A stretch of DNA of 64,000 nt from Dehalococcoidia bacterium (GTDB lineage Bacteria > Chloroflexota > Dehalococcoidia > Lucifugimonadales > GCA-2712585). Positions within the stretch are counted from its first letter, which is position 1. Every line of letters starts with the position of its first letter. Under the pieces are notes generated by a model. That model was given only the letters and a program-made list of their open reading frames with translations. It did not search any database and was not told the DNA's origin. Shown piece by piece: positions 8,897 to 55,419 of this stretch. Made by a program: the position numbers and the translations under genes. The stretch spans positions 720,323 to 784,322 of the forward strand of contig CBDBNU010000002.1 of the NCBI GenBank assembly GCA_965207845.1, given 5' to 3'.

Positions 8897-10270
8897 TCAC
8901 TCCTCCCCCTCGGCCTCAAGCCCCATCGGAATCTCAAACACGAACCGGCTCCCCCCTTCCGGCCTTCGCTCAGCGCGGATGGCCCCACCGTGGGCTTCAA
9001 CCATCTGCCTCGCAATCGTAAGTCCCAGTCCCGTGCCGCCCGTCGCCCTGCTCCGCGATGGGTCCACCCGGTAGAACCGGTCGAAGATCTGCGCAAGCTC
9101 CTCCTCCGGCACACCCTCCCCGGTGTCCGCAACCGACACACGCACCGAACCTTCCGTCTCTTCCACCGACACCGACACCTCACCCCCTTCCGGTGTGTGA
9201 CGCACCGCGTTGTCCAGCAGATTCCCCAGCGCCTGCGCTATCCGCGTCCGGTCCATCCGCGCTATCGGCAGTTCCGACGGCGCCTCAAGCGTCAACGCGA
9301 TCCCCTTCCTCTCCGCCGCCGGGCGGAACGCGGCTACCGACATTGTTGCCAGCTCGGCCATAGACGCTTCCTGGAAGTCCAGCGAGAGCGATCCCGCGTC
9401 CGCCTGGGCGATGAGGCCGAGGTCTTCCACCAGCCGCCCCAGGTGCAGCGCCTGCTGGTGCGCCACGTCGATGGCCGCGGGTGTGGGCGTCAGGACCCCG
9501 TCGCGCATAGCCTCCAGGTAGCCGCGCACGTTCGTCAGCGGCGTTCGCAGCTCGTGGGCCACGTCGGACATGAGCCTCACCCGCTGCTGCTCCGCCCGTT
9601 GCAGCCGGTCCGCCATATTGTTGAACGTCCGACCCAGCTGCCCCACCTCGTCCGATGACGAGACCTCCACCCGCTCCTCCAGGTTGCCCATGCCGAGCCT
9701 CGCCGCCGCGCCCGTCAGCGCCCGCACCGGGGAGAGTATGCGCCCCGAAAGCACCGTCACCAGCAGCACTCCGCCGAGCCAGGCCCCCAGCCCGGCCCAC
9801 ACCAGCGCCCAGTTCACCGACGACACCACCCGGGAGATCGCGGGCTCCGCCACCTCCGTCTCCACCTGGCCCGGGGCCAGCGACAGAAACCCTATCTCCT
9901 GGTTGCCTGTGCGAATGGGCCGGAATCTATCGGGACCCCGCCATGCAACGGGCAACCGGCCGAAGTCCGCTTGGGAGTCGGCAATCAGACGTCCCTGGGG
10001 GTCCCGCACCACTATCCGGCGGTCATACAGGTTGCCCGCCCGCTCCACGAGGGACTGAATGCCGCTCCAGTTTCGGTTTTGCGAGTACGCCAGGGAGATC
10101 ATCTCCTCCACCCGTGCGGCGCGCGCCTCCTCCAGCCGTTCGGAAAACTGGTCCACCTCCCTGTTGGCAGAATACCCGGTGTAGACCCCAACCGCAGCCA
10201 GGGCCAGACCCAGGGCCAGGGTGAAGCCCAGAATCAGTCGAAACTGGAGTCCCTGAAACCACCTAACCAT
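8897..10270 (-). CDS. Sensor histidine kinase (HAMP-HisKA-HATPase_c)
   Basis: H-box SDVAHELRTPLT, N-box LLDNAVRHTP, G-boxes DTGEGV and GGTGLGL. Two TM helices flank a periplasmic loop of about 150 aa. Start taken at the ATG at 10270 (MVRWFQ...), overlapping the response-regulator stop. Confidence 0.85.
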   Translation of the reverse strand: MVRWFQGLQFRLILGFTLALGLALAAVGVYTGYSANREVDQFSERLEEARAARVEEMISLAYSQNRNWSGIQSLVERAGNLYDRRIVVRDPQGRLIADSQADFGRLPVAWRGPDRFRPIRTGNQEIGFLSLAPGQVETEVAEPAISRVVSSVNWALVWAGLGAWLGGVLLVTVLSGRILSPVRALTGAAARLGMGNLEERVEVSSSDEVGQLGRTFNNMADRLQRAEQQRVRLMSDVAHELRTPLTNVRGYLEAMRDGVLTPTPAAIDVAHQQALHLGRLVEDLGLIAQADAGSLSLDFQEASMAELATMSVAAFRPAAERKGIALTLEAPSELPIARMDRTRIAQALGNLLDNAVRHTPEGGEVSVSVEETEGSVRVSVADTGEGVPEEELAQIFDRFYRVDPSRSRATGGTGLGLTIARQMVEAHGGAIRAERRPEGGSRFVFEIPMGLEAEGEE

Positions 10271-10958
10271 CTCCGAATCTGTAACCCACGCCGTAAACTG
10301 TCCGAATGAGACCCCTCTCCTTGCCGTCCCTCCTGTCCGAAATCCGCTTCCTGAGATTCGAAACGTGCACGTCGATGGTCCTGTCGAACCCGTCGAATTC
10401 GTACCCGAAGACACGGTCGATGATCTGGTCCCGCGTAAAGGTCCTGCCCGGCTCCTTCATGAACATGGCCAGAATCCTGAACTCCGTTGGTGTGACGGCG
10501 ACTTCCCTGCCCTGCACCCACAACTTCCGGCTTAGCAGGTCCAGCTTCAGCATGTTGGAATTCAGCGTCGAAGGCCCCGCCTCCGCCCGCTCCCGCGCCG
10601 TCCGACGCAGCACCGCCCGCACCCGTGCCGCCAGCTCCCGCGGACTGAAGGGTTTGGTCACGTAGTCGTCCGCCCCCATGTCCAACCCCTCCAGCCGGTA
10701 GGGCTCGTCCGCCCGCGCCGTCAGCATCACGATGGGCACGTCCGACTCCTCCCGGAGGATGCGGCAGACGCTTATCCCGTCCAGCCTTGGCAGCATCAGG
10801 TCCAACACAATGAGGTCCGGCTGCGCCTCCCGCGCCAGACGCAGACCGTCGATCCCATCTCCCGTGGAAAGCACCTCGTGGCCGTCACGCCCCAGGTAGA
10901 GGCGCAGGAGCTCCACCACGTGGTCGTCGTCCTCAACTATCAGTACCTTGCTTCCCAT
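10263..10958 (-). CDS. OmpR-family DNA-binding response regulator
   Basis: Receiver motifs VLIVEDDD, LIVLDLMLP and TKPF. C-terminal winged helix ...RTVYGVGYRF. Confidence 0.9.
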   Translation of the reverse strand: MGSKVLIVEDDDHVVELLRLYLGRDGHEVLSTGDGIDGLRLAREAQPDLIVLDLMLPRLDGISVCRILREESDVPIVMLTARADEPYRLEGLDMGADDYVTKPFSPRELAARVRAVLRRTARERAEAGPSTLNSNMLKLDLLSRKLWVQGREVAVTPTEFRILAMFMKEPGRTFTRDQIIDRVFGYEFDGFDRTIDVHVSNLRKRISDRRDGKERGLIRTVYGVGYRFGDG

Positions 10959-10989
10959 TCCTCCACCTTCTGATAACCTGCAACTCCCA

Positions 10990-11038
10990 ATCAGGGAAAG
11001 GAAAGGCGGGGAGACCAGGGGGTGATAGTCTCCCCGCC
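10990..11038 (-). terminator. Rho-independent terminator after the 11063..11617 gene
   Basis: Minus-strand stem GGCGGGGAGAC / GTCTCCCCGCC (11005-11015 and 11028-11038), 12-nt loop, followed by TTTCCTTTCCC. Confidence 0.6.
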
Positions 11039-11062
11039 CTTAGTATATCGTTCATCAGCGTC

Positions 11063-19470: not shown

Positions 19471-20025
19471 CTACTGACCCGTCTTTCCTCCATGCTGCTT
19501 CAGCAGATCCCGGACCTTCGCCCGATTCTTGATGAACTCATCCGCATCCTCCCTGCCGATGAAGGGATTCTCCACGCTGGCCCCGACCAGCGGCGTGTTC
19601 CCCGTGGCGTCGGGGGCGTTTACGTCCGCGCCCTCCTCCAGGAGCAACTCCGCCATGTCGAACAGACCCCAATAGGCGGCCCACATGAGCGGCGTGCTCT
19701 CAAACTCGTCCTTCGCCTCAATCTCGATGTCCGCGCCGTTTTCCAACAGCAGCCGGACGATCTTCCCGTTCCTCTTCAACACCGCGTGGTGCAACGCCGA
19801 CGCTCCGGCGAAAGGGAAACCCTCCGGGATGTACACTTTGTTGGGGTCCGTCCCGTATTCCATGTGACGCCGCACCATTCCCACGTTCTCGAACTCAATT
19901 GATTGCAGCAGCGTGATGTCCGGCGGCGCCTTCTCATCAACGGGCGTAGGGGAGTCCGACCCGCCGCACGTCGCAACGCTCAACGCCGCAAACATCACAC
20001 ATGCCAGCAATGAAAATAGCTTCAA
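19471..20025 (-). CDS. Ankyrin-repeat lipoprotein
   Basis: Signal peptide with lipobox (SVATC). Ankyrin units SALHHAVLKRNGKIVRLLLENGADIE and TPLMWAAYWGLFDMAELLLEEGADVN. Confidence 0.8.
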   Translation of the reverse strand: MKLFSLLACVMFAALSVATCGGSDSPTPVDEKAPPDITLLQSIEFENVGMVRRHMEYGTDPNKVYIPEGFPFAGASALHHAVLKRNGKIVRLLLENGADIEIEAKDEFESTPLMWAAYWGLFDMAELLLEEGADVNAPDATGNTPLVGASVENPFIGREDADEFIKNRAKVRDLLKQHGGKTGQ

Positions 20026-20147: not shown

Positions 20148-21380
20148 ATGCCCCCAACTCTGACCAGAATTCTGCTTCTGACCTTAGCCGTCGGCATCGT
20201 CGTAGCTTGCGGCGGAGACTCCGAACCGGGCCAGGCCGATGACCACCTGAAAATCGGCCTTGTCCTGAACTTCACCGACTCTCCCGAGGCCTCCCAGGCC
20301 CGCCGGATGGCTTTCGACCTGGCCGTCAAACACCTGAACGAGGCCGGCGGCGTCCTCGACAGGGACGTTGAAGGCTTCACCGTGGACGCCACCAGCGATC
20401 CCGTCGTGGCCCTGGAACGCGTCCTCCTGCTCGTCGATGCTGCCCGCGTTCACGCCATCGTCGGCCCCAACGCCAGCTCCGCATCCCTCCCCGTTGCGAG
20501 ACAGGTCTCCGGCCCTCGGCAGGTGCCGACAATCAGCCCCTCCGCCACTTCGCCCCTCCTCTCCGCCGTGGAGGACGACGACTTCTTCTTCCGCACCGCC
20601 CTCTCCGACAGCGCCCAGGGGCCCGTGCTGGCCCAGGTCAACCGCGACCTGGGCTTCGACAACGTGGGCCTCATCTACCAGAACGACGCCTGGGGTCAGG
20701 GTCTCGCCGAGACATTCCAGGAATCCTGGACGGGCCGGGTGGCCGCCGTTTCCGTAGAGCTTGAGCAGGAATCCTTCCTGCCACAGCTGCGGGAAAGCGC
20801 CGCCAACAACCCCCAGTCCCTCGTAGTCATCGCCTCCGAGTCCGTCGCCCTGCCCCTCGTCAAGGAAGCCGTGGACAGCGGCCTCTACGATAACTTCACC
20901 TTTGGCGACGCCGCCAAGCGGTTCAGCCTGCTGGAGACCGTCGGCGCGGATAATCTCGCGGGCATGCTTGGCACCGCCGGGGAGCCTGCGCCCGAAAGCG
21001 AGGCCACTCGCGCCTGGGAGAGGACTTTCATCGACGAGTACGGAAACCTTCCCCACGTGCCCTACACCAAGGAGACCTACGACGCCGTAATCGCCATCGC
21101 CCTCGCTGCCCAGGCAGCCGGCGCCTTGGACGGAGCCGCCATTCGCGACCAACTTCGCGAAATCGGATCGCCGCCGGGCCAGATCGTGTCCGCCACGCCG
21201 GAGGGAATCAAGGAGGCCCTCGACCTTCTAAGAGACGGGGTAGAAATAGATTACGAAGGGGTCGCCGTATCCGCCGACTGGGACGCCAACGGGGACCTGA
21301 GTCGCGGCTACATCGGCGTCTGGCGCTTCACCGCCGACGGCGACATCGAAGACGTCAAGTCCGTCCTCTTCGAATACTAG
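20148..21380 (+). CDS. ABC transporter substrate-binding lipoprotein (Leu/Ile/Val-binding-protein-like fold)
   Basis: Start at the ATG at 20148 (MPPTLTRILLLTLAVGIVVACGG gives a lipobox). Periplasmic-binding-protein type I-like sequence. No permease or ATPase gene is adjacent. Confidence 0.75.
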   Translation: MPPTLTRILLLTLAVGIVVACGGDSEPGQADDHLKIGLVLNFTDSPEASQARRMAFDLAVKHLNEAGGVLDRDVEGFTVDATSDPVVALERVLLLVDAARVHAIVGPNASSASLPVARQVSGPRQVPTISPSATSPLLSAVEDDDFFFRTALSDSAQGPVLAQVNRDLGFDNVGLIYQNDAWGQGLAETFQESWTGRVAAVSVELEQESFLPQLRESAANNPQSLVVIASESVALPLVKEAVDSGLYDNFTFGDAAKRFSLLETVGADNLAGMLGTAGEPAPESEATRAWERTFIDEYGNLPHVPYTKETYDAVIAIALAAQAAGALDGAAIRDQLREIGSPPGQIVSATPEGIKEALDLLRDGVEIDYEGVAVSADWDANGDLSRGYIGVWRFTADGDIEDVKSVLFEY

Positions 21381-21865
21381 CCGCCGGACTTCTTCCTGCG
21401 CTTGGCCGCGGGCCGCCTCTTCCGTGGGCGGCGCGACGCTTCATATACGGCGATCCAGTCCTCCATCGGCATCTTCCCCACCGCTTCGCCGATGAGCTCC
21501 AGCGGCAGGTCGTCGAGCGTTTTGAAGCGTACGCAGGACTTCCCCATGTTCATCCGCTTCCCCGTCGCCTTGTAGCTGTCCACAAACCACTTCTGGGTCT
21601 CCTGGCTGGCGTAGATGTTCATCAGATGCACCGACACGTAGTTCTTCTCTGACGCTATCGCCGCGTACATCAGCGGGTGCCCGTTGTACGTCTTGGGAAC
21701 GACGGATAGAGGCACGACGTAGGCAATCATCCCGAAGTCCATCACCTCCTCGTACCCCTTGGGCAGGTTCGAAAGCACCACCTCCCGCACCGTCGTGACC
21801 GCCTCCCGACGGTCCTCGCTCAGTTCCTCCAGATACTCTTCAACAGTTGAAGCATTGCTCTTCAT
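21377..21865 (-). CDS. DUF1801 domain-containing protein
   Basis: Start at the ATG at 21865 (GGAGG upstream). ...STVEEYLEELSEDRREAVTTVREVV...NYVSVHLM... is typical of YdhG/DUF1801. Basic C-terminal tail. Confidence 0.7.
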   Translation of the reverse strand: MKSNASTVEEYLEELSEDRREAVTTVREVVLSNLPKGYEEVMDFGMIAYVVPLSVVPKTYNGHPLMYAAIASEKNYVSVHLMNIYASQETQKWFVDSYKATGKRMNMGKSCVRFKTLDDLPLELIGEAVGKMPMEDWIAVYEASRRPRKRRPAAKRRKKSGG

Positions 21866-21914
21866 AGCCAGACCTCCAGGAAATTTCAATCATCTATGTG
21901 TTGATGCCCCGCAA

Positions 21915-22316
21915 TCAGGAACGGGGCGGAACCACCATGCTGCAAGCCGGGCCGTAGGCGCGACTGAGCTTCCGGTCCAACGTCGCCAACGGGCAGTCCA
22001 ACGCCTCCGCCAGCGCGACGTACCATGCGTCGTAGCTGGTCAGGTTGGGCCGCAACTCCCACACACGCTCGGCGAAAGGCGCGAAAGGGAACAGTTCGAC
22101 GTCCAGCCGAAGTAAGCCAGCGTGGGCGAGGGTCGCCTCGATGCGAGAAATTTTCTGCTTATTCTCCAACTGCCGTAAGACATTGGTCGCCTCAACCAAT
22201 GCCAACTCAGGCGCGGCCAGACTGTCCTTGGCAATCATCGATTGCGCCCACAGACCATCGCTCTTGTGCTCCACCAGCGCCGCCACGAGTACGGACGCGT
22301 CGACAACAGTCGTCAC
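21915..22316 (-). CDS. vapC: Type II toxin, PIN-domain VapC family
   Basis: MTTVVDASVLVAAL... (N-terminal acidic D), ...SYDAWYVALAEAL..., ...LATLDRKL. The ATGA start overlaps the upstream antitoxin stop. Confidence 0.85.
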   Translation of the reverse strand: MTTVVDASVLVAALVEHKSDGLWAQSMIAKDSLAAPELALVEATNVLRQLENKQKISRIEATLAHAGLLRLDVELFPFAPFAERVWELRPNLTSYDAWYVALAEALDCPLATLDRKLSRAYGPACSMVVPPRS

Positions 22317-22549
22317 CTACGGCCTTCGTCGCGTGCCCGCAGTATATCCTCCGTCGTCACTTGTGAATTGAATAAGGCCTTACGCTCACGTACCTCTTTC
22401 AGCCACGCGTCTATGGAGGGTTTTGAAGCGATGCGCTCCAATTCCCCACGCAGGAACTCCTGCATGGACTGGCGCTGCCGCGCCGCAAGAGCGGCAAGCT
22501 CGTCCCGAACTCCCTCTGGAACGTTTCTTATGGTTATCTGCACAGCCAT
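22313..22549 (-). CDS. vapB: Type II antitoxin (ribbon-helix-helix, FitA/VapB-like)
   Basis: 78 aa. MAVQITIRNVPEGVRDELAALAARQRQSMQEFLR is an RHH-type N-terminus. 4-nt overlap with vapC. Confidence 0.75.
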   Translation of the reverse strand: MAVQITIRNVPEGVRDELAALAARQRQSMQEFLRGELERIASKPSIDAWLKEVRERKALFNSQVTTEDILRARDEGRR

Positions 22550-22592
22550 GACTGCATTATGCCAGCACAGCAGGCAATGTGCAATCCCACCA

Positions 22593-23063
22593 TCAGAACC
22601 CGTCCCAGCCGGGGATTGCCGCCGCCTGGCGCACCCAATCTTCCATCTGGGCTTCGTCGAGCTCTCCCTCGTAGATGTCCACCCAGCGGGCGTCCGGGTC
22701 CTTCCCGGAACCCGGCGGCTCCGGACTCAGCGACGCGCCTTTCAGGAACGTCACCTTCACGTATCGGGCGAACACGTGGTAGCTGACGAACCACCCCATC
22801 CCTTCCACACCGTACCAGGGGGAGTTCCACCTGACAGCCTTCCTGACGTTCGGCGCCGTCCGCGCAATCAAGTCGTCCAGGCGCTGTCCCAACTCCCGCT
22901 TCCACCCCAGCATCAGGCCGATGTAGGCCTGCACGAAAGCGTCACCGTCGCCCTTGGGAATCTGCGGGTTGCCCCCCGAAAGCAGTTTTGGGTTCTTTAC
23001 CGCCTGCTCCAGCAGTTCCTCCGGCGAGGTCTTGGTGGACCTCCTTGTCCTCCTGCGGGCCAT
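22593..23063 (-). CDS. DUF1801 domain-containing protein (second copy)
   Basis: Start at the ATG at 23063. ...RKAVRWNSPWYGVEGMGWFVSYHVFARYVKVTFLKGASL... follows the DUF1801 core pattern. Confidence 0.65.
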   Translation of the reverse strand: MARRRTRRSTKTSPEELLEQAVKNPKLLSGGNPQIPKGDGDAFVQAYIGLMLGWKRELGQRLDDLIARTAPNVRKAVRWNSPWYGVEGMGWFVSYHVFARYVKVTFLKGASLSPEPPGSGKDPDARWVDIYEGELDEAQMEDWVRQAAAIPGWDGF

Positions 23064-23605
23064 GACTCTCACCCCCACCTGACCTGCGCCTTTCAACTCA
23101 TGCAGGCGCAGTCGAAAACTTGGGTAAAGGATATCCGGCAAACGGGGCGAATGCCAGCCAACGACCGCCGGGTCGCTCGGCCCAGATCGACTCGCTGAGC
23201 CTTAACGCTAGTGCTCGTGGGGTGGTTGACTCCCGCCGGGAGCCTCAGCGTCTTCCACTCAACACCCCGGCTCCCCGATGTTCCCGCAGCACTGGCTCCT
23301 GCACCGAATCTTGATGGCCACGTTCCGGACCATCATCCCCAACCGAACGTGCAACGGCCCTGGATGCGTCCGCAGCATCTTCAGGGACCGAAACAGGCCC
23401 TTGATCATGTCAAGAAGCGTATAGAAGATCATGCCGAGAAGAGGATACACAAACGCAGACCGGCTTGTCTTGGGTGGGGTTGGGGGATCTTGGGGGCCGG
23501 GCGGTAGCAGGACACAGAGCTGATGGCTGATAGTGCCATTCCGGTTAAACCAACTTAGGTACAGTTGGTAGTATAATATGGTCAAAACAACTGGTTGGAG
23601 TTGTC

Positions 23606-23857
23606 ATGCGCGAAGTTCAAGCGACCGAAGCCAAGACGCGCTTGGCCGAACTGCTGAGAGCGGTCGAGAGCGGAGAGACTGTTGCCATCACTCGGCACGG
23701 AAGACCCGTTGCTCACCTGGTTCCCGCCCCGGCCCAAAGACGCGCTAACAGCGCTAAAGCGGTGGAGCGGTTCCGCCGACGCCGCGCCGGGTGGAAGCGC
23801 GTGACGTTCTCCACGGAGGAGATACTCGCTGCGCGGCATCAGGGTCATCGCTTATGA
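23606..23857 (+). CDS. Type II antitoxin, Phd/YefM family
   Basis: MREVQATEAKTRLAELLRAVESGETVAITRHGRPVAHLVP is a canonical Phd/YefM N-terminus. TATAAT and short inverted repeats (CCAACT/AGTTGG) lie just upstream. Confidence 0.8.
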   Translation: MREVQATEAKTRLAELLRAVESGETVAITRHGRPVAHLVPAPAQRRANSAKAVERFRRRRAGWKRVTFSTEEILAARHQGHRL

Positions 23858-24261
23858 GCGGGCTGGTTGTGGATGCGTCAGTAGTCATGGCGTGGCTCTT
23901 CGACGATGAGGAGGAGCCGCGGGCGGATAGGGTTCTAGAACTACTAGTAGAGGATGGGGCGATAGTGCCGCACCTGTGGCATCTTGAGACACGCAACACC
24001 CTCCTGGTCGCTGAGCGGAGCGGGCGTCTTTCCGCCGAAGGGGTACAGGAAAGGCTAGATGCTTTGATGGGTTTGCCCATCCAAACGGATCAGGTACCCA
24101 ATTTTCAGTCCGCCTTTGAACTAGCCAGGGTTCACAATCTGTCCTTCTACGACGCCCTATATCTGGAACTTGCCAAGCGGGAAAGTGCAGAACTAGCAAC
24201 GTTGGATCGAGCACTGAGCCGGGCAGCCGTTGCTGAAAGGGTGGGAGTGTCGATAGCGTAG
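23854..24261 (+). CDS. vapC: Type II toxin, PIN-domain VapC family
   Basis: Start at the ATG at 23854 (ATGA overlap with the antitoxin stop). MSGLVVDASVVMAWL..., ...SFYDALYLELA..., ...LATLDRAL. Confidence 0.85.
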   Translation: MSGLVVDASVVMAWLFDDEEEPRADRVLELLVEDGAIVPHLWHLETRNTLLVAERSGRLSAEGVQERLDALMGLPIQTDQVPNFQSAFELARVHNLSFYDALYLELAKRESAELATLDRALSRAAVAERVGVSIA

Positions 24262-24364: not shown

Positions 24365-24844
24365 CTACGGTAACCGCGTCCCTAAGATTGTCTTAGAGAT
24401 GCCATGAATCACATTGTTCGTAACTGTCTTTGACGAATCTGCCAATGCATCAAAACCGACAATCCTAATGTTGGGTCTGCTCTGATTCTCTCTTCGTAGC
24501 ACGTCCTTTTGCTTGGCGTTCAGTGAGGATTCTCTTCCAACTACCACCAATCCAGTTGATGTCTTAAATTGAGGGAAAGAACCTGATGCTTCCGCCAAGT
24601 GGGAGCTCAAATAATCTTGATATTCAAGAACTTGATCAATTGCATGTGTGGCATCAGCACTCAAATTGCCACGTCTGGTGACTAGCTTTTTGTCAGGAGT
24701 CTCAATTTCGGCTATCACATAATTGTCATCGTAGGTGCGGATGACGAAATCAGGCTCTAATTTGCCATGTAGGTCTGGCCTTCCCCAGACTTGGAATGCT
24801 CTTGAGTCAAGCAATAGTGGATGCTTCTCAAGAAATTTCTGCAA
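24365..24844 (-). CDS. Shedu SduA-like DUF4263 PD-(D/E)xK nuclease domain (C-terminal fragment; frame is open upstream to 25012 without a start codon)
   Basis: LQKFLEKHPLLLD...LEPDFVIRTYDDNYVIAEIETPDKKL...AIDQVLEYQDY...LVVVGRESSLNAKQKDVLRRENQSRPNIRIVGFDAL. The first usable start is the TTG at 24844. A+T-richer than its surroundings. Confidence 0.55.
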   Translation of the reverse strand: MQKFLEKHPLLLDSRAFQVWGRPDLHGKLEPDFVIRTYDDNYVIAEIETPDKKLVTRRGNLSADATHAIDQVLEYQDYLSSHLAEASGSFPQFKTSTGLVVVGRESSLNAKQKDVLRRENQSRPNIRIVGFDALADSSKTVTNNVIHGISKTILGTRLP

Positions 24845-24912
24845 GGCTGACTCCTTGTTTTCTGCTCCGGCTAGCAGTTCGTCGTATTGTGCTAGGACTT
24901 TGGGGCCAACGG

Positions 24913-25458
24913 CTATTGTTCTTTGAGCGAAGGCGTGGCTGAGATTCCCAATAGCACCGGGATCTTGGAGAGAGAGAGAATCATTAGTGATGTTGACACA
25001 TAGATGCCCGCCTCATTGTCGTCGTCAATACTTAGAATCAACTCATGCAGATGGCTACGAGCTGCTAATGATAGATCGCTCCAATTCCCAACGGCCTTCG
25101 ATACAGCTTGCCTCAATTCGGAATCTTTTACCGTTGATTCAATTGACTTGGGCCCATGTCCTGCAGATGTGCTAGAAAGCAATTGCATCGCCAATGAGAA
25201 GTTCGTAGAGGTTGGTTCATTGAAAGCGTTTTCGACTACTGCCTTGAGGCCATCCTGTCTCCATGCTAATAGGCAATAAAGGGCTGGTGCTTTCAAGAAC
25301 AAGCCGAATGCATTCCCACCATAGTCATTGCGAGCTAATAGTTGAACAGCCAACTTGCCTTCTAGGGTTCCAGATGCAACGCAATCAACTAAGAGAGTCG
25401 TAAGTTCTCTTGGATTGCCTCTTTCGACAAACTCGCGTGCTCGGTCAATCAAAGTCAT
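24913..25458 (-). CDS. Hypothetical helical protein; probable N-terminal module of the split Shedu-like gene
   Basis: 181-aa ORF immediately upstream, overlapping the open frame of the nuclease fragment by about 100 nt. No family recognised. Confidence 0.5.
   Translation of the reverse strand: MTLIDRAREFVERGNPRELTTLLVDCVASGTLEGKLAVQLLARNDYGGNAFGLFLKAPALYCLLAWRQDGLKAVVENAFNEPTSTNFSLAMQLLSSTSAGHGPKSIESTVKDSELRQAVSKAVGNWSDLSLAARSHLHELILSIDDDNEAGIYVSTSLMILSLSKIPVLLGISATPSLKEQ
24968..24979 (-). repeat. (TC)6 dinucleotide tract inside the overlap of the two Shedu-like ORFs
   Basis: Plus strand reads gagagagagaga. Removing one unit fuses the frame of 24913..25458 to the frame of 24365..25012. Confidence 0.9.
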
Positions 25459-25590
25459 CGAGTTATCCTGGCTAAGTTTGGGAGTGAACTACCTAATACT
25501 AGGAGTGGCTTCAAATGACTCCTAGCACCGCCGCGGAAACAGTTAGAATTCGCTACTGGGTCAATCTGGCACGTAAATTAACCAAAAACA

Positions 25591-25617
25591 GGCCCGGCAG
25601 GGTCCGAACCCACGACT
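25591..25617 (-). repeat. 27-nt copy of the 3' end of the tRNA-Met gene (att-like direct repeat)
   Basis: ggcccggcagggtCcgaaccCacgac here versus ggcccggcagggtTcgaaccTacgac at 27115-27141. Same orientation, 2 mismatches. The flanking sequence is not tRNA-like. Confidence 0.7.
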
Positions 25618-25696: not shown

Positions 25697-26980
25697 CTAA
25701 CGGTCACGCGCTACCCAGAAGTCATCAGCCTTCTTGTCAAACTTTCCATTTCCTGCCCTATCGTCGAGCCACACCCAGAACTTGTTCAGCCACCTCCACC
25801 GGAAGTTTCGGATAACAAAACGAGGAATGGCGTATATCCTGCGGGGCGGCTTAGTCCATGCACACATGCGGACGCAGGTGCTGCAGGTAGTCCCGACGCG
25901 GTTCTGGAAGGTCATACACTTCTTTGCATCTACCTTCCAAGAAAGTACGCCGGTTGAATTGTGCTCGTTTAAGGCCTCCAAACTTCGGTTCCCGGTTGTG
26001 ATGGCTTTCGTTCCACACTTCGGGACGCATTTCAGACATGCGTTGCAGAACTCTGTGATACCGGAGTCCACCGCGCCTGCGAATTCCAGCGGAAGGTCGG
26101 TGAAGATCTTGGAAATGCGGCAGCGTGCCCCCACCTTTGGGTTGATTAAAAGGCCATGCCTCCCTAGCTGGCCGAGGCCAGCATCGACAGCCAGGGGAAT
26201 GCTTAAGGCAGTGTCATTAGCCGCGGGAATGGCGTTATACCCCATACCTCGTATGAACTCAGCCATCATCCATAGGGTCGGAGCCATCCGGGCATATGCT
26301 AGTGTGCTGAGTCCTTCAGTAAGGAGGGACGGCGCGTGCTCAGTGCCATCTATGTCCTTGCCCCACTCGTGGAGCATCACCACCACATATTTCATTTCCT
26401 TCGGTATGACCCGAGTCCCATCTCCCAGGCGAATGGGCTGGCTGTGCTCTTCATAACCGGGTTCGTCAGAGAACTTGATGGGGTAGTCCTTCTTCGTCTC
26501 CTCATCAAAGTAATGGGAATACACCCAGCGACGGTCCAACTCAGCGAAGCCTACCTGGTCCGCTCCAAGCACTTGGGCGGCCTTGCGCACAATCTGAGAA
26601 GCTTCTTTGGGCGAAAATTCCGGTCGACCAGTAGGCGCGGGCTCAACCTTGGTTTGCCATGCAGTAGCTCTGGAATCCGCCTGATTCTTTGAGAAGCCCA
26701 TAATCGATAGGAGGGAATCTGCTGCAGAGTCCAAGCCCCAGGCGGGGGCCTCGAAACCGGCGCGTCCCTTCTCCGAAAGCTGTCTCTGCTTGTCCTTTAA
26801 CTTCGCTCGTTCATTCTCGAGGTGAGCATCCCAAACCATCTGCGAGCCTATATGATCTTTCTGATTGAACCGCACGTACGAATCTTGCACTCTGTACATT
26901 TCGGCGGCCGTCACCCGCCCATTCGCGTTAGAATTCTTTTCCGACTGAGATTTGGCGTGACGCCTCAGCTTAAGTTTCAT
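25697..26980 (-). CDS. rdhA: Reductive dehalogenase homologue (RdhA-like), no Tat signal
   Basis: C-terminal Fe-S motifs FCNACLKCVPKCG (CxxCxxCxxxC) and C-x10-CSTCVRMCAW. The central region ...NAIPAANDTALSIPLAVDAGLGQLGRHGLLINPKVGARCRISKIFTDLPL is typical of RdhA. The N-terminus MKLKLRRHAKSQ lacks RRxFLK. Confidence 0.75.
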   Translation of the reverse strand: MKLKLRRHAKSQSEKNSNANGRVTAAEMYRVQDSYVRFNQKDHIGSQMVWDAHLENERAKLKDKQRQLSEKGRAGFEAPAWGLDSAADSLLSIMGFSKNQADSRATAWQTKVEPAPTGRPEFSPKEASQIVRKAAQVLGADQVGFAELDRRWVYSHYFDEETKKDYPIKFSDEPGYEEHSQPIRLGDGTRVIPKEMKYVVVMLHEWGKDIDGTEHAPSLLTEGLSTLAYARMAPTLWMMAEFIRGMGYNAIPAANDTALSIPLAVDAGLGQLGRHGLLINPKVGARCRISKIFTDLPLEFAGAVDSGITEFCNACLKCVPKCGTKAITTGNRSLEALNEHNSTGVLSWKVDAKKCMTFQNRVGTTCSTCVRMCAWTKPPRRIYAIPRFVIRNFRWRWLNKFWVWLDDRAGNGKFDKKADDFWVARDR

Positions 26981-49822: not shown

Positions 49823-52312
49823 TTACTCTTCTGGACTACAGCGCAGCAGGCCTGTTTTTCTTACCCAAATCTCCGGGAGTTCCTGCGCAATACAGCCCGT
49901 GAAATGATTCCCGTTTAGCCATAACGTCTCCAGCTTGGTAAGGCTGGCTAGTTCCGCAGGAATATCTCCACTTAGTTGGTTGCCCTGGAGCATCAATGTT
50001 GAAAGTTTCGTGAGGTTGCCAAGCTCCGCAGGTATCTCTCCCGTTAGCTGGTTATTGCCCAGATTCAATGTCACGAGCTCAGTCAGGTTTCCCAGCTCTG
50101 ACGGTATCTCCCCAGTCAGCCGATTCAAACGCAGGACCAATTGATCGAGATTGGTGAGATTGCCTAGCTCCGCAGGTATCTCTCCGGTCAATTCATTCTC
50201 TCGCAAAATCAGTCCAATTAGGCTGGAGAGGTTTCCTAATTCCGATGGAATGGGGCCTGCGAGAGCGTTCTCGGCGAGCTCCACCCCGGTAACCTGGCCC
50301 ATCGTGTTAGTAAACACCCCGTGCCATGCACCCAACGGCACGGCGCTGACCCAGTCTCTGTTGTTTACCCAATTCTCTCCCCCGGTGGCGTTGTAAAGCG
50401 CGACCAACGGGGGCAAGTCCGGCGAATCCTCTAGTACCCGGTCGATTAAGGGACTGCCGTGATATCGACGCCAGGCCGAGTCAAATTCCACTTCTCTTCC
50501 AGGTGGCACGTTGGAATTAAACGCATGAAATACGCTGTCGTGGTTTGGATTCTCAAAAATCAGTCCCTGCGCATGAAGATCTCTCATGGCCGCAGCCGCT
50601 GCCTCTGGTCCCAACGCCTCATACATTCCCAGCATAAACCTTTCGCCAAGCCTGTAATCGCAAATCCCTCCCCTGTAGGGATTTACATGTTCCCAGATGT
50701 TCTCCGCGCATCCCCCGGTGGATTCTAGTCCCTCTAACCGATCTTCCAGCTCTTCTCCGCCGGATTGGGCCTTAGTGTAGGCCTCCAGGAAATTTGCTGT
50801 TCCCTCCGTTAGCCATCTCGATCCTGCCTGAATATAGTAGTGGCCGAGTTCGTGAAAGAGCGTACCCACGGGAGGGCCCGTCTCCCGGTTTTCTACCAGA
50901 ATTATCGATGTCAAATAGCACGGATCCACGTTGCCCCCGCCCGCGCAAAACAAACGGTTCTCCCCACTGCCCGAAATCTCCCAGAATTCCGGCTCAACTA
51001 GAAGAACTATTACATCGCTTAGCGGCAACTCCGCCCCCATGAAGTCTTCCATTACTCGTATCCCATGCGCCAACGCCGACAGCGCATAATCGTCAGGAGG
51101 GAACGGAGTATGCCTGACCACGCTAATTCCCACGTCTCCCGACAAAGGGAGGGTAACGAACGCCGACGCTACATGGTTGGTCTCAATCAGGGCTTGTTGA
51201 AATTCGTCATCGGTATCGCCTATCGCGTGCAACAGCGCCGCTTCATCATCATCCAAACCGTCTTGGAACCATGGTTGACTGACAACCCGAGACAAGACTT
51301 CTGAATCTCCTTCGTACAAGCTCCAACCTGTGCTGGAGTCTTCATCGGGGCCAACTATATTTGCCGGCGGGCCTGACAGAGACCAAAGATACAATGATTC
51401 CAGCGCATACTCGTCTCTCTGTCGAAATGGCGACTCGACCACATGCCACGCAAATTCCAGGTTGCTTTCGGATAAATCTCGAACAGCCACCAGGGATTTG
51501 AGCTTTGCCTCTGTTATTCCGTCCCCAACCCACGAATATCCTAGCACTCGCTGGAACAAATCAGGGTCCACATACTGTATTTCTGCTAAGACTCCAATGG
51601 CCTCCAACTCAAGAACGGCTGGTTCGCTGTCCTCAATCCAGGGAACACTCATCAGCAACGCCGTAGACTCCTCATCAGTTACGGATATGTTCCAAAGCCC
51701 CTGCGCGGCATATTTCTCAATTTCTGTGACCCCGTCCGCCATCCACGGCAGCGCTTCCACTGCCTCCCGGCTCCCAGGCCCCGGCGTCGGCTCAGGAGTT
51801 GGTTCCGGCATTGGCATCGGCGTGGGTGCGGGCGTAGGCGAAGGCTCAGGCGTTGGCGCCACGGCAATGGAAGCCGTATGCTTTGGAGTAGGGGCGGGCG
51901 CTGCCTCCGGACTTGGCGTTTGCGTGGCTGTTGGTGCAGGCGCGGGCGTAGGGGTTGGCGTCGATACAGGCATCGGGGTGGCTTGCGACGAAGGGTCAGG
52001 CGTAGGTGTAAGTGTAGGTGTTGCCTGTGGAGTAGGCTCAGGCGTCGACTCGGACGGAGAAGCAGGTGTCGGCTCCGCCGTGGGCGGTGCCGTAGGTGCC
52101 GGAGTGGGCCCCGGGATTTGCTCCGGCATCTCCATCTGTATGGGAATTGGTGTCGAGGTCGATACTAGGTCTGAATTGGATGTGTCTCTCGGTACAACAG
52201 TACCTGTGGGTGGGAGATCATTCTCGCAGGCTGCAAATACAATCAATGCCAACAATTGCAACAAACAAACAACAACTATATGCGGAATACGCCTTCTCAT
52301 GCCAATTAACAT
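49823..52312 (-). CDS. Lipoprotein: Pro/Thr-rich linker + peptidase-MA-like (HExxH) core + C-terminal plant-type leucine-rich repeats (copy B, HExxH intact)
   Basis: Signal peptide plus lipobox (LIVFAAC). About 130 aa of PTPEP-type linker. TLFHELGHYY...WLTEGTANFLE (gluzincin-like). Then six or more 24-aa LRRs of the form LxxLxxLxLxxNxLTGEIPxELGN. Confidence 0.75.
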   Translation of the reverse strand: MLIGMRRRIPHIVVVCLLQLLALIVFAACENDLPPTGTVVPRDTSNSDLVSTSTPIPIQMEMPEQIPGPTPAPTAPPTAEPTPASPSESTPEPTPQATPTLTPTPDPSSQATPMPVSTPTPTPAPAPTATQTPSPEAAPAPTPKHTASIAVAPTPEPSPTPAPTPMPMPEPTPEPTPGPGSREAVEALPWMADGVTEIEKYAAQGLWNISVTDEESTALLMSVPWIEDSEPAVLELEAIGVLAEIQYVDPDLFQRVLGYSWVGDGITEAKLKSLVAVRDLSESNLEFAWHVVESPFRQRDEYALESLYLWSLSGPPANIVGPDEDSSTGWSLYEGDSEVLSRVVSQPWFQDGLDDDEAALLHAIGDTDDEFQQALIETNHVASAFVTLPLSGDVGISVVRHTPFPPDDYALSALAHGIRVMEDFMGAELPLSDVIVLLVEPEFWEISGSGENRLFCAGGGNVDPCYLTSIILVENRETGPPVGTLFHELGHYYIQAGSRWLTEGTANFLEAYTKAQSGGEELEDRLEGLESTGGCAENIWEHVNPYRGGICDYRLGERFMLGMYEALGPEAAAAAMRDLHAQGLIFENPNHDSVFHAFNSNVPPGREVEFDSAWRRYHGSPLIDRVLEDSPDLPPLVALYNATGGENWVNNRDWVSAVPLGAWHGVFTNTMGQVTGVELAENALAGPIPSELGNLSSLIGLILRENELTGEIPAELGNLTNLDQLVLRLNRLTGEIPSELGNLTELVTLNLGNNQLTGEIPAELGNLTKLSTLMLQGNQLSGDIPAELASLTKLETLWLNGNHFTGCIAQELPEIWVRKTGLLRCSPEE

Positions 52313-53025: not shown

Positions 53026-55419
53026 CTATGAGCCTGCCTCGGCTTCTGTTGTGCATCGTGCCAAGCGCGATTTCTCGACCCATATTTCGGGAAGCTCTTC
53101 CGCAATGCAGCCAGTGAATTCGTTAACCCCAAGATCCAAGCTTCTGAGATTCACCAGATTGGCAAGCTCTGATGGTATCTCGCCGCTAAAGAAATTCCCC
53201 GAGACATCCAACTTCCTGAGCTTCACCAAGTTTCCCAGTTCGGCCGGTATCTCGCCGGTGAGGTCGTTACCCTGAAGTTCCAATATCTCCAATTTCACCA
53301 ATCGGCCGAACTGAGGAGGTATCTCCCCCACCAGACGATTTGCTCTCAAGTCCAAATCCAACAGGCTTGTGAGATTGCCCAACTCAGGGGGAATGGTTCC
53401 AGTCAATCTATTGCTCCCGAGACTCAATTTCGTTAAGTGGGCGAGGCCCCCCAATTCCGGCGGGATATCACCTGCAAGACCGCTGGCAAAGAGTTCTACC
53501 TGTACAGCCCTCCCAAAGGCATCCGTGGACACTCCGTACCAGGCCCCCGGTGGCGCGTCGCTGGCCCAGTTCCTGCTATATAGCCAGTTCTCTCCAAGAG
53601 TGGCGTCGTAGAGCGCTAAGAGCGGTGGCAAATCCGGTGAGTTTGCCCAGTCTTGGTCAGCAATAGGCCCGCCATGATACTGTCGATAGACAGCACGGAA
53701 TTCTTCCTCGTTCCCCTCCGGGACATTCTTCAAAAACGCATAGAAGATGTGGTCCTCACTATGGTCCAGGAACAAATACCTCTGACCATACAATTCCCGC
53801 AATCCCCCGGATACTGCCCCCGCTCCCAGGACAGAATTTATCCCCAGCAGGAATCGTTCCCCCAGCAATTGGTCGCAGTCCCTGCCGCCAAACAAGGAAA
53901 TGTGAAGCCAGAGACTCTCCCCACATACTCCGTCGGATTCGATGCTTGCCAATCGCTCTTCAAGTGATTCTCCACCCATTTCAGCTTCAACGTGCGCTTT
54001 CAGAAATCTCGCTGTCGCCGTATTGAGCCACCATGGTTCCGGAACTGCGTAGTATTCCCCAATCACCTCCAAGAGTGCCTCCCTCGAAGGTCCCTCTTCA
54101 GGATTCTCCGCCCACAAAATCGACCTTAGATAGCATTGGTCCAATCTGCTGCCGCTACATGAACTATCATTAAACGCCGCGTGTCTGGCATTCCAGAATT
54201 CCGGCTCGACTAGGAGGAGAATCACGTCGCCAAGGGGCAGCGGCACTTCCATAAATCCTTCCATCGCTCGCAACCCTTCATCTAGAGTCGCCAACGTGTC
54301 GTCGTCCGAGAGAATTGGAGTCTGACTGACAACGGCAAGTCCCACTGAGCCGGACAAGGGAAGCTCAATAGTAGTGGATACAACGTAGTGTTCCTCAACC
54401 AGCGCCATGGTAAATGCACCTAGACCCCTGCTTTCGTGAATTGCATATATCAGCGCCGCTTCTAGATCATCCAAACCATCCTCAAACCACGCCTGGTTGT
54501 TCAATTTGTCCAATAATTCAGCATCTTCCTGCTGGCCGGATAGATGCATGATATGCAGAGAATTCAAAGCATCCGCATCTCTTTGCATAAACGGCGCATC
54601 CATGAAAGGTGACCTCACTACATGCCAGGTCAATACCATGTCATACTGGGCAAGACGCTCAATACTACCTATCGCCCTGGACTCTGCCGCCGTAATCCCA
54701 TCCAGGGCCCACGAGAAGCCTAGAACTGCCTGCGCCAACTCCGGGTCATGGTTCCATAACCTTGGTATCGTGGCAATCACGGATAATTCACTATTCGAAA
54801 TCTCGGCATTGTCTACCCACGGAAAACTCAGTACTAATGATGTTAGTTCCATGTCGATATACCATAAGGCAGTTAGCGCCTCGACGGGATATGCTTCTTC
54901 AACGGTTATCCCATCTGCAACCCAGGGCAACGCATATACTGCAGCCGGACTCCCAGGTTCCGGGGTCGGCTCAGGAGTCGGTTCCGGCGTCGGCTCTGGC
55001 GTGGGCTCAGGTGTTGGTGCTGGTGCCGGCTCAGGCGTCGGCTCTGGCGTGGGCTCAGGTGTTGGTGCTGGTGCCGGCTCAGGCGTCGGCGTAGGCTCAG
55101 GAGTTGATTCCGGTGTCGGCTCCGGCGTAGGCTCAGGCGTAGGTGTCGGCGTTGATTCCGGTGTCGGCTCAGTCGTCGGCTCCGCCGTGGGCGGTGCCGT
55201 TGGTGCCGGCGTAGACTCCGGGGTTTGCTCCGGCATCTCCATCAGTATGGGAGATGGTGTCGAGGTCGATACTAGGTCTGAATTGGATGAGTCTCTCGGT
55301 ACAACAGTACCGGTGGGTGGGAGATCATTCTCGCAGGCTGCAAATACAATCAATGCCAACAATTGCAACAAACAAACAACAACTATATGCGGAATACGCC
55401 TTCTCATGCCAATTAACAT
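53026..55419 (-). CDS. Lipoprotein paralogue: Pro/Thr/Glu linker + degenerate peptidase-MA-like core + plant-type LRRs (copy A, HExxH lost)
   Basis: The first 80 aa or so are nearly identical to copy B, after which the two diverge strongly. The position equivalent to FHELGHYY reads LEVIGEYY, and WLTEGTA reads WLNTATA. C-terminal LRRs of the form NxLTG(T/E)IPPELGN. Confidence 0.75.
54989..55084 (-). repeat. Perfect 48-nt tandem duplication inside the Pro/Thr/Glu linker of copy A
   Basis: The unit gtcggctctggcgtgggctcaggtgttggtgctggtgccggctcaggc occurs twice (54989-55036 and 55037-55084). It encodes repeated [16 protein letters not shown]. Confidence 0.8.

What the first reader, a model, noticed from the sequence alone, without database searches (positions are those of the whole stretch)
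24365..25458. Shedu-like (DUF4263 PD-(D/E)xK nuclease) defence gene split by a frameshift that coincides with a (TC)6 tract
The downstream ORF (24365..24844, TTG start) reads LQKFLEKHPLLLD...LEPDFVIRTYDDNYVIAEIETPDKKL...AIDQVLEYQDY...VVVGRESSLNAKQKDVLRRENQSRPNIRIVGFDAL. This matches the SduA C-terminal nuclease layout as I remember it: FLExxPxLL, a PDF aspartate, a hydrophobic-strand E-x-[K/E], QxxxY, and a GR...L tail.

Its frame stays open for another 56 codons upstream, to a TGA at 25013-25015, without any ATG, GTG or TTG. That extension (...VGPKVLAQYDELLAGAENKESA-LQKF...) reads like genuine domain sequence. It overlaps the last 33 codons of the upstream 181-aa ORF (24913..25458).

Deleting one TC unit from tctctctctctc (24968-24979) joins the frames: ...STSLMILSL-QDPGAIGNLSHAFAQRTIAVGPKVLAQYDELL... 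The result is one protein of about 363 aa with a variable N-domain plus a C-terminal nuclease, the expected Shedu architecture.

Possible explanations are a slipped-strand ON/OFF switch on a defence nuclease, a recently inactivated gene, or an assembly indel. I see no canonical X-XXY-YYZ slippery heptamer for -1 ribosomal frameshifting in the overlap.
Basis: partly seen in the sequence, partly recalled or inferred. Interest (0 to 1): 0.72.

Follow-up and report, generated by a model that had tools for sequence, protein, structure and literature searches.

The report
Shedu defence gene broken by TC-repeat slip
A single-gene anti-phage nuclease (Shedu/SduA) is split into two reading frames by one extra TC unit in a short TC repeat; this is most likely an ordinary recent inactivating mutation (or a sequencing indel), not a purpose-built on/off switch.

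Summary
On the minus strand, a 181-aa ORF (25458..24913) and an overlapping frame (25012..24365) are two pieces of one 363-codon Shedu (SduA) gene.

- **Family:** the downstream frame hits Pfam SduA_C (67 bits, cut-off 27) and PADLOC SduA (E=1e-23).
- **Ancestral form:** about 85 uninterrupted relatives, mostly 361-365 aa and 55-79% identical, cover the conceptual fusion end to end without gaps.
- **The lesion:** the closest relative's DNA (82.6% identical) differs by exactly one indel, 2 nt inside the (TC)6 tract at 24968-24979.
- **No decay:** dN/dS is about 0.2 throughout, including the stretch the shift leaves untranslated. The break is therefore very recent, or not real.
- **Not a conserved switch:** the tract is specific to this lineage. 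Relatives with the same Leu-Ser-Leu peptide use other codons and have no dinucleotide run of 4 or more units. It is also short (5 units ON, 6 OFF).
- **Downstream fragment:** the TTG-started 159-aa piece lacks the invariant motif I glutamate (E202), so it is probably not an active nuclease.

Best reading: a recent slipped-strand +TC mutation in a mobile, low-GC Shedu gene. The main rival is an assembly indel, which only reads can exclude. A real phase switch is possible but unsupported. This is a new member of a known kind, of modest interest.

The parts
24365..25458 (-). Whole disrupted Shedu (SduA) gene. It has 363 codons once one TC unit is removed. It sits in a low-GC island (46% GC in a 61% GC window).
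   Evidence: About 85 intact homologues, mostly 361-365 aa, cover 100% of the repaired product. The gene is 46.2% GC against 61.0% for the window.
24913..25458 (-). Upstream ORF (181 aa). Residues 1-160 are the real all-helical N-terminal sensor/regulatory domain. The last ~21 residues (SKIPVLLGISATPSLKEQ...) are an out-of-frame tail.
   Evidence: There is no Pfam or PADLOC hit for this part. An exhaustive phmmer search finds this domain only in ~360-aa proteins or in shorter sequences, presumably fragments.
24968..24979 (-). (TC)6 microsatellite carrying the +2 nt (one unit) insertion. The inferred ancestral state is ATT CTC TCT CTC CAA = I-L-S-L-Q with (TC)5.
   Evidence: This is the only indel against locus L001. 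Relatives read CTC TCC CTC, CTC TCG CTT, CTC TCA CTT or CTT TCG CTC at this position.
24365..25012 (-). Downstream open frame (215 codons plus stop). It holds the linker helices and the SduA_C PD-(D/E)xK nuclease domain. Homology to relatives starts at the tract.
24842..24856 (-). AAGGAG (24856-24851), a 6-nt spacer, then TTG (24844-24842). This is the first possible restart site after the shift. It was created by two substitutions specific to this lineage (AAC>AAG and TTT>TTG relative to L001). The public record calls a 159-aa gene from it.
24851..24853 (-). Codon of E202, the invariant motif I glutamate (aligns with B. cereus Shedu E204). It lies upstream of the TTG, so it is missing from the 159-aa product.
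24749..24751 (-). Codon of D236, the motif II aspartate in 'PDF'.
24701..24709 (-). Motif III, E250-I-E252. The position of the canonical lysine is Glu in this whole clade. A conserved K256 (24689-24691) follows in 'TPxK'.
24632..24634 (-). Codon of Q275, the motif IV glutamine in 'QVxxY'.
25588..25613 (-). Terminator-like hairpin plus T-run between the upstream reductive-dehalogenase-like gene and the Shedu start. It suggests that Shedu is its own transcription unit.
   Evidence: This is a consensus match only.

Best explanation
The locus is a single-gene Type 1 Shedu anti-phage system. The protein has an N-terminal all-helical (ARM/HEAT-like) sensor domain and a C-terminal DUF4263/SduA_C PD-(D/E)xK nuclease.

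In this lineage, substitutions turned the Ile-Leu-Ser-Leu codons into a perfect (TC)5 run. Replication slippage then added one TC unit. That +2 nt shift ends translation after 181 aa: a 160-aa real N-domain plus a junk tail. The nuclease domain is left without its natural start.

The likely result is loss of Shedu function, that is, a very young pseudogene. It could revert by losing one unit, but it is not an evolved switch.

Shown: family membership, the ancestral 363-codon form, the exact position and size of the indel, the lack of other decay, and the lineage-specific origin of the tract.

Inferred: that the indel exists in the DNA rather than only in the consensus, that it arose by slippage, and that function is lost.
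For: - **Family:** SduA_C and PADLOC SduA hits. The model's C-terminal half matches B. cereus Shedu 8TI9 (TM 0.67 normalised to the target), E. coli SduA 8PS5 and EndoMS.
- **Ancestral form:** about 85 intact relatives, mostly 361-365 aa, aligned without gaps across the junction.
- **Indel:** one 2-nt indel inside the tract is the only length difference from the closest relative over 1092 nt.
- **No decay:** dN/dS against that relative is 0.21 overall and 0.14 for codons 161-204, which the shift makes untranslatable. There are no other stops. The lesion is therefore young.
- **Tract not conserved:** absent from all 14 relatives' genes examined at DNA level.
- **Downstream fragment probably inactive:** motif I E202 and the invariant R179 lie upstream of the only restart codon.
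- **Precedent in the family:** an orthologue in the isolate genome of Phormidium tenue FACHB-886 has an in-frame W>stop.
- **Assembly looks clean:** about 60 other genes tile the window without split frames, and both C7 homopolymers lie inside intact ORFs.
Against: - There are no reads and no second assembly of this strain. The two fragments occur on one 917-kb public contig only.
- Related contigs in the same public sources look like low-coverage long-read assemblies and carry probable indel errors.
- A 2-nt indel in a dinucleotide run is also what a consensus error would look like.
- The complete absence of further decay is equally expected from an artefact, or from a switch that is regularly ON.
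Confidence: 0.55

Rival explanations
1. Assembly or consensus artefact. The organism has (TC)5 and an intact 363-aa Shedu gene, and the extra TC was introduced by read errors or polishing at a short tandem repeat.
For: - The gene shows no other sign of decay.
- The source is a single 917-kb contig held by NCBI and ENA.
- Relatives come from metagenome chromosomes and from contigs named with 1x-21x coverage. Two of those contigs carry frameshifts, one in a T5 homopolymer at 7x and one at 1x coverage.
- One indel in 64 kb is compatible with roughly Q48-50 consensus accuracy.
Against: - No other split gene is visible among about 60 genes.
- The two C7 homopolymers, normally more error-prone than a 12-nt dinucleotide run, are in frame.
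- A 917-kb contig implies reasonable coverage (inference).
- Real inactivation of this family occurs in an isolate genome.
Confidence: 0.28
2. Evolved contingency locus. The TC tract is a slipped-strand ON/OFF switch (5 or 8 units ON, 6 or 7 OFF). It would let the population hedge between phage defence and the cost or autoimmunity of a nuclease, as in phase-variable restriction-modification genes.
For: - The SSR sits inside the ORF and sets the frame.
- Six dinucleotide units meets the PhasomeIt cut-off used for Campylobacter (PMC6321876).
- It is the only such tract in the window and is unlikely by chance (0.09 expected).
- The gene is otherwise under purifying selection.
- SSR phase variation of defence (R-M) genes is well established (titles).
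Against: - The tract is not conserved. The closest relative has an interrupted CTCTCCCTC, and all others lack any dinucleotide run of 4 or more units there.
- It is short. The same paper warns that tracts at its cut-offs may mutate at below 1e-5 and be inefficient switches.
- The window shows no repertoire of other SSR-bearing genes.
- No length polymorphism could be observed.
Confidence: 0.1
3. Functional split. The N-domain (181 aa) and a separately initiated nuclease domain (159 aa from AAGGAG-N6-TTG) work as two polypeptides or as a free nuclease. This would resemble Type 2 Shedu or the two-component KELShedu system.
For: - A strong Shine-Dalgarno motif with 6-nt spacing precedes the TTG. 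It was created by two lineage-specific substitutions.
- Host genes in the window use AGGAGG-type sites.
- Two-component and domain-only Shedu systems exist.
Against: - The 159-aa product lacks the invariant motif I E202, R179 and the two linker helices.
- None of about 85 relatives is split there.
- Internal in-frame SD-plus-start sites occur by chance in at least three other genes of the window.
- N-terminal truncation of B. cereus Shedu makes it toxic (Gu et al.), which argues against tolerated expression of an active fragment.
Confidence: 0.04
4. Recoding. Ribosomes (+2/-1 slip of tRNA-Leu or tRNA-Ser on the CUC-UCU-CUC repeat) or RNA polymerase slippage restore the frame in a fraction of products.
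For: A 2-nt shift on a (CU)n run re-pairs identical codons, and the frame change needed is -1/+2.
Against: - There is no X XXY YYZ heptamer and no notable downstream structure (MFE only -14.5 to -24 kcal/mol for 68-118 nt).
- There is no conservation of tract or shift in any relative.
- To my knowledge, transcriptional slippage needs long homopolymers.
Confidence: 0.02

Closest known systems
Bacillus cereus B4264 Shedu (SduA; PDB 8TI8/8TI9; Gu et al., bioRxiv 10.1101/2023.08.10.552793)
   Same: - C-terminal DUF4263 PD-(D/E)xK nuclease fold. Foldseek to 8TI9 gives E=1e-4 and TM 0.67 on the target; the profile hit gives E=9e-8.
- Motifs I (E), II (D), III (first E) and IV (Q) are all present.
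- N-terminal regulatory domain plus helical linker plus nuclease, that is, the Type 1 architecture.
- A single-gene system.
   Different: - Only 16-19% identity.
- The N-domain is all-helical and ARM/HEAT-like, not sPC4/Whirly.
- The motif III lysine position is Glu (E-I-E-T-P-x-K).
- The gene here is frameshifted.
Escherichia coli SduA (PDB 8PS5; Loeff et al., bioRxiv 10.1101/2023.08.10.552762)
   Same: Shedu nuclease core (Foldseek E=2e-4). [quoted passage not shown]
   Different: The N-terminal fold is different (overall rmsd 13.5 A). Whether the helical N-domain here senses DNA ends is unknown.
SSR-driven phase-variable restriction-modification genes (phasevarions; e.g. Type III mod genes, PMC5909438) and Campylobacter phasome loci (PMC6321876)
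   Same: A simple-sequence repeat inside the ORF of a defence-related gene. Its unit number decides whether the frame is open.
   Different: In those systems the tracts are longer, are conserved across strains, vary in length between isolates, and occur in genomes with many such loci. None of this is seen here.
KELShedu two-component system (PMC12577705) and Type 2 (domain-only) Shedu
   Same: A DUF4263 nuclease encoded as a separate polypeptide from its partner or sensor.
   Different: Those are native architectures. Here the separation is a one-off frameshift within a family that is otherwise always fused, and the separate nuclease piece lacks motif I.

Membership tests
Shedu (SduA) anti-phage nuclease | DUF4263 / SduA_C domain above the curated threshold | tested here: met
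   PF14082 scores 65.6-67.4 bits against a cut-off of 27. The best PADLOC SduA model gives E=1e-23.
Shedu (SduA) anti-phage nuclease | PD-(D/E)xK fold resembling solved Shedu structures | tested here: met
   The AF2 model (pLDDT 88.8) has 8TI9, 8PS5 and 8TI8 as its top PDB hits, followed by EndoMS.
Shedu (SduA) anti-phage nuclease | Catalytic motifs I (E), II (D), III (E-x-K) and IV (Q), as defined for B. cereus Shedu | tested here: inconclusive
   E202, D236, E250 and Q275 are present and invariant. The motif III lysine position is E252 in this whole clade, with a conserved K256 nearby. From my own knowledge, an E-x-E variant exists in BamHI. Activity was not tested.
Shedu (SduA) anti-phage nuclease | Type 1 architecture: variable N-terminal domain fused to the nuclease in one polypeptide | tested here: not met
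In the window as given, the ORF is split by a +2 nt shift.
Shedu (SduA) anti-phage nuclease | Stand-alone, mobile defence gene in varying or defence-island contexts | tested here: met
   There is no synteny between the window's flanks and any relative's flanks. The gene is 5-13 GC points below its flanks in every locus. Neighbours elsewhere include an AAA_15/AAA_21/DUF3696 ATPase, an M78 peptidase and a serine recombinase. Here the neighbours are two PIN toxin-antitoxin pairs.
Shedu (SduA) anti-phage nuclease | Homotetramer and protection against phage | not testable with these tools
   This needs biochemistry and plaque assays.
SSR contingency (phase-variable) locus | A repeat inside the ORF whose unit number sets the reading frame | tested here: met
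   (TC)6 gives the OFF frame and (TC)5 gives an intact 363-aa ORF.
SSR contingency (phase-variable) locus | Tract long enough for high-rate switching | tested here: inconclusive
   Six units equals the lowest PhasomeIt cut-off, and the ON allele would have five. The authors note that such tracts may switch at below 1e-5.
SSR contingency (phase-variable) locus | Tract conserved in orthologues or related strains | tested here: not met
   None of 14 relatives' genes has a dinucleotide run of 4 or more units at the site. The closest relative has CTC TCC CTC.
SSR contingency (phase-variable) locus | Observed length polymorphism within a population or between isolates | not testable with these tools
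   No reads are available. The two fragments occur on one contig only. No near-identical sequence was found in JGI metagenomes.
Programmed ribosomal frameshift | Slippery heptamer plus a stimulatory element, conserved in relatives | tested here: not met
   There is no heptamer in the overlap and only weak downstream folding. Relatives are unshifted.

The most novel reading that the evidence does not exclude
The TC tract is a working contingency locus that toggles a Shedu nuclease OFF and ON in an environmental or symbiotic high-GC bacterium (relatives are mostly Chloroflexota). In my literature searches this would be the first SSR phase-variable Shedu. In the OFF phase, the SD-TTG restart might still yield a motif-I-less nuclease-domain fragment with a regulatory or dominant-negative role.
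Probability: 0.08. Interest if true: 0.6.

Novelty: new member of a known kind. Interest (0 to 1): 0.25.

Why it matters
If real, this is a clean snapshot of how defence genes die or pause. A microsatellite is born by point substitutions in Leu-Ser-Leu codons, and a one-unit slip follows before any other decay. That fits the general picture of rapid turnover of costly defence genes.

It also documents a compact Shedu subfamily of about 363 aa. The subfamily has an all-helical N-domain and an E-x-E motif III. It is found mainly in Chloroflexota metagenome genomes, with more distant members in cyanobacteria, Planctomycetota and proteobacteria.

In practice, annotation pipelines call two hypothetical genes here, and defence finders would miss or mis-size the system. 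It would become really interesting only if reads showed tract-length heterogeneity.

Tried and rejected
- **Source assembly or sister strains.** Exact-product look-ups for the 181-aa, 159-aa and neighbouring 427-aa proteins found nothing in the contig index. A JGI metagenome scan with the fusion gave only two distant hits at 28-29% identity. The cluster look-up showed a single 917-kb contig with masked accessions. Tract-length variation therefore could not be examined.
- **Other split genes as an assembly-quality control.** The one suspicious overlapping pair (8897-10456 and 10263-11039) is an ordinary histidine kinase plus response regulator. GC3-based tiling showed no other break.
- **Conserved context or insertion scars.** No synteny with any relative. 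No flanking direct or inverted repeats. No sigma-70-like promoter match.
- **Naming.** NCBIfam gave no hit for the fusion. A single-sequence PDB search with the C-terminal half gave nothing. Only profiles reached 8TI8.
- **Truncated homologues as possible recurrent frameshifts.** P0079 breaks in a T5 homopolymer on a 7x contig and P0077 on a 1x contig. These are probably read errors, so I do not count them as biology.
- **Frameshift-stimulating RNA structure.** I considered one downstream of the tract, but the folds are weak.

Full report
**1. The observation**

On the minus strand, an ATG at 25458 opens a 181-codon ORF that ends at TAG 24915-24913. A second frame, offset by +2/-1, is open from just after TGA 25015-25013 down to TAG 24367-24365. 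Its first possible start is a TTG at 24844, after 56 codons with no ATG, GTG or TTG. The two frames overlap by 100 nt. Inside the overlap lies tctctctctctc, (TC)6, at 24979-24968.

The tract is the only dinucleotide run of 5 or more units in the window. A first-order Markov model of the window expects 0.09 runs of 6 or more units.

**2. What the gene is**

- The downstream frame matches Pfam SduA_C (PF14082, 67.4 bits against a cut-off of 27). The match starts five residues upstream of the TTG.
- It also matches 15 PADLOC SduA models. The best (E=1e-23) starts 29 residues upstream of the TTG. The start-less extension is therefore real domain sequence.
- The upstream ORF has no Pfam, PADLOC or NCBIfam hit.
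- A database search with the fusion returned 90 proteins. About 85 are full-length relatives, most of them 361-365 aa, at 55-79% identity and 100% coverage. The fusion aligns with them without a gap across the junction.
- An AlphaFold2 model built on that alignment is confident (pLDDT 88.8, pTM 0.85). It has eleven helices in residues 1-196 and then an alpha/beta domain. The junction (residues 160-161) sits inside helix 147-164.
- Foldseek places the C-terminal half on B. cereus Shedu (8TI9, TM 0.67 on the target), E. coli SduA (8PS5) and EndoMS. The N-terminal half gives only weak ARM/HEAT-repeat similarities.
- An exhaustive phmmer search with the 181-aa ORF found the N-domain only in ~360-aa proteins or in shorter sequences, presumably fragments. 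The domain therefore belongs to this Shedu subfamily.

**3. Catalytic residues**

Gu et al. define Shedu motifs I (E204), II (D249), III (E264, K266) and IV (Q295). In an alignment reaching down to 21% identity, the invariant columns include E202, D236, E250, E252 and Q275.

Profile alignments to 8TI8/8TI9 put E250-I-E252 on B. cereus E-I-K. A weak segment also puts E202 on the 'SEKFWQ' glutamate, which is E204 after correcting for a two-residue numbering offset. The clade thus carries E-x-E instead of E-x-K, with a conserved K256 four residues on. This is a variation, not a disproof. From my own knowledge, BamHI uses E-x-E. Activity is untested.

**4. The lesion**

The closest relative's gene (locus L001, 79% aa and 82.6% nt identity) aligns over 1092 nt with a single gap of 2 nt inside the tract. 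Upstream-frame homology runs through Ile-Leu-Ser-Leu, and downstream-frame homology begins at Leu-Ser-Leu-Gln-Asp. The indel must therefore lie within the repeat.

Deleting 2 nt gives the family's modal length of 363. Inserting 1 nt would give 364, with an extra residue that no relative has. The window therefore carries +TC, and the ancestral state was ATT CTC TCT CTC CAA, (TC)5.

Relatives that share the Leu-Ser-Leu peptide encode it as CTC TCC CTC, CTC TCG CTT, CTC TCA CTT or CTT TCG CTC. None of the 14 relatives' genes examined has a dinucleotide run of 4 or more units at the site. The microsatellite is a lineage-specific accident of synonymous and neighbouring substitutions.

**5. Age of the lesion**

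Nei-Gojobori dN/dS against L001 is 0.21 overall. It is 0.25 for the N-part, 0.19 for the C-part, and 0.14 for codons 161-204, which the shift leaves untranslatable. There is no second stop or indel. The break is either much younger than the divergence from L001, or reversible, or not real.

**6. Can the pieces work separately?**

Two window-specific substitutions, AAC>AAG and TTT>TTG, create AAGGAG-N6-TTG at 24856-24842. Host genes in the window use AGGAGG-type sites, so the 159-aa ORF could be translated.

That product, however, lacks motif I E202 (whose GAG codon is part of the AAGGAG), the invariant R179 and the two linker helices. [quoted passage not shown] Internal in-frame SD-plus-start sites also occur by chance in at least three other genes here. 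I rate a functional split as unlikely.

**7. Context**

- The gene is 46% GC in a 61% GC window, and the dip spans about 24.2-25.6 kb.
- In every relative's locus, the gene is likewise 5-13 points below its flanks.
- No flank synteny exists with the window.
- Neighbours in the window are two PIN toxin-antitoxin pairs (RHH-PIN and Phd-PIN), two DUF1801 genes, a reductive-dehalogenase-like gene and glycyl-tRNA synthetase.
- Neighbours elsewhere include an AAA_15/AAA_21/DUF3696 ATPase, an M78 peptidase and a serine recombinase.
- Named relatives at 56-62% identity are from Dehalococcoidia, Tepidiformaceae and other Chloroflexota metagenome genomes. More distant relatives are from cyanobacteria, Gemmataceae and proteobacteria.

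This is the behaviour of a mobile single-gene defence island.

**8. Real mutation, artefact or switch?**

*Evidence for a real mutation.* About 60 other genes tile the window without a split frame. The one suspicious pair is a normal two-component system. Both C7 homopolymers are in frame. An orthologue in the isolate genome of Phormidium tenue FACHB-886 carries an independent W>stop, so inactivation does happen in this family.

*Evidence for an artefact.* The fragments exist on a single 917-kb contig. Related public contigs are named with 1x-21x coverage, and two of them have probable indel errors. One indel in 64 kb is within the range of a good but imperfect consensus.

*Evidence on an evolved switch.* The tract just meets the 6-unit dinucleotide cut-off used by PhasomeIt. 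Its authors warn that such tracts may mutate at below 1e-5. The tract is not conserved. The window has no other candidate SSR loci apart from two (AACA)3 runs in paralogous LRR genes.

*Recoding.* It lacks a slippery site, a stimulatory structure and conservation.

My estimates are:

| Explanation | Probability |
|---|---|
| Real recent slippage mutation (nascent pseudogene) | about 0.55 |
| Assembly indel | about 0.28 |
| Evolved phase switch | about 0.10 |
| Functional split | about 0.04 |
| Recoding | about 0.02 |

**9. Comparison and novelty**

By domain, fold and four of five catalytic positions, the repaired protein is a Type 1 Shedu. It differs in its uncharacterised helical N-domain and its E-x-E motif III. 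In the window as given, it fails the one-polypeptide criterion.

Frameshifts at short repeats in defence genes are a known kind of event. My literature searches turned up SSR phase variation for restriction-modification and surface genes, but nothing for Shedu. That reading would be new, but it is not supported here.

This is a new member of a known kind, with interest of about 0.25.

Noticed in passing
L011:5001-6089 (Phormidium tenue FACHB-886, JACXWX010000059.1): An orthologue of the same Shedu subfamily has an in-frame nonsense codon (AFNV*AQPDF; Trp in relatives) at codon 220 of an otherwise intact frame. This is an independent inactivation in an isolate genome.
   Followed up: partly
L019:3001-4091 and L020:2802-3885: Two further homologues are frameshifted. 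One breaks at a T5 run (CGTTTTTCGAG) on a contig labelled 7x, the other on a contig labelled 1x. These are probably read-level errors in low-coverage long-read assemblies. They show that indel errors occur in the public sources that hold this family.
   Followed up: partly
window 24701-24709 (and alignments A1, A2): The whole clade, including distant members annotated as SduA by NCBI, has E-I-E-T-P-x-K where B. cereus Shedu has E-I-K. The canonical PD-(D/E)xK lysine position is Glu, and a conserved Lys lies four residues downstream.
   Followed up: partly
window 24842-24856: Two substitutions specific to this lineage (N>K AAC>AAG and F>L TTT>TTG at an otherwise aromatic position) jointly create a perfect AAGGAG-N6-TTG initiation site. 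It sits exactly at the start of the nuclease domain, downstream of the frameshift.
   Followed up: partly
window 49823-52312 and 53026-55419 (minus strand); repeats at 52260-52271 and 55367-55378: Two large paralogous leucine-rich-repeat proteins (829 and 797 aa) have low GC3 (0.55-0.56). Each carries an identical (AACA)3 run, (TGTT)3 on the coding strand, about 15 codons from its start. With the ankyrin-repeat protein at 19471-20025, these are eukaryote-like repeat proteins.
   Followed up: partly
window 21377-24261: A cluster of accessory genes lies next to the Shedu island. It holds two type II toxin-antitoxin pairs (FitA-like RHH 22313-22549 with PIN 21915-22316; Phd/YefM 23606-23857 with PIN 23791-24261) and two DUF1801 proteins (21377-21889, 22593-23141).
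   Followed up: partly
window 25697-26980 (minus strand): A reductive-dehalogenase-like protein (PF13486 plus a 4Fe-4S double-cluster domain) lies immediately upstream of the Shedu gene. Its GC3 is intermediate (0.63), so it may also be horizontally acquired.
   Followed up: no
window 61029-61889: A low-GC3 (0.53) ORF gives a weak PLD-like nuclease/phospholipase domain hit (PF13091, 25.1 bits, just below the cut-off of 27). It may be another acquired or defence-type gene.
   Followed up: no
L021:1-3722 and L023:1-7632: Relatives of the Shedu gene sit beside defence- or mobile-type genes. These include an AAA_15/AAA_21/DUF3696 ATPase with two unknown ORFs (L021), and an M78 peptidase, an aGPT-Pplase3/ADDT protein and a serine recombinase (L023).
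   Followed up: no
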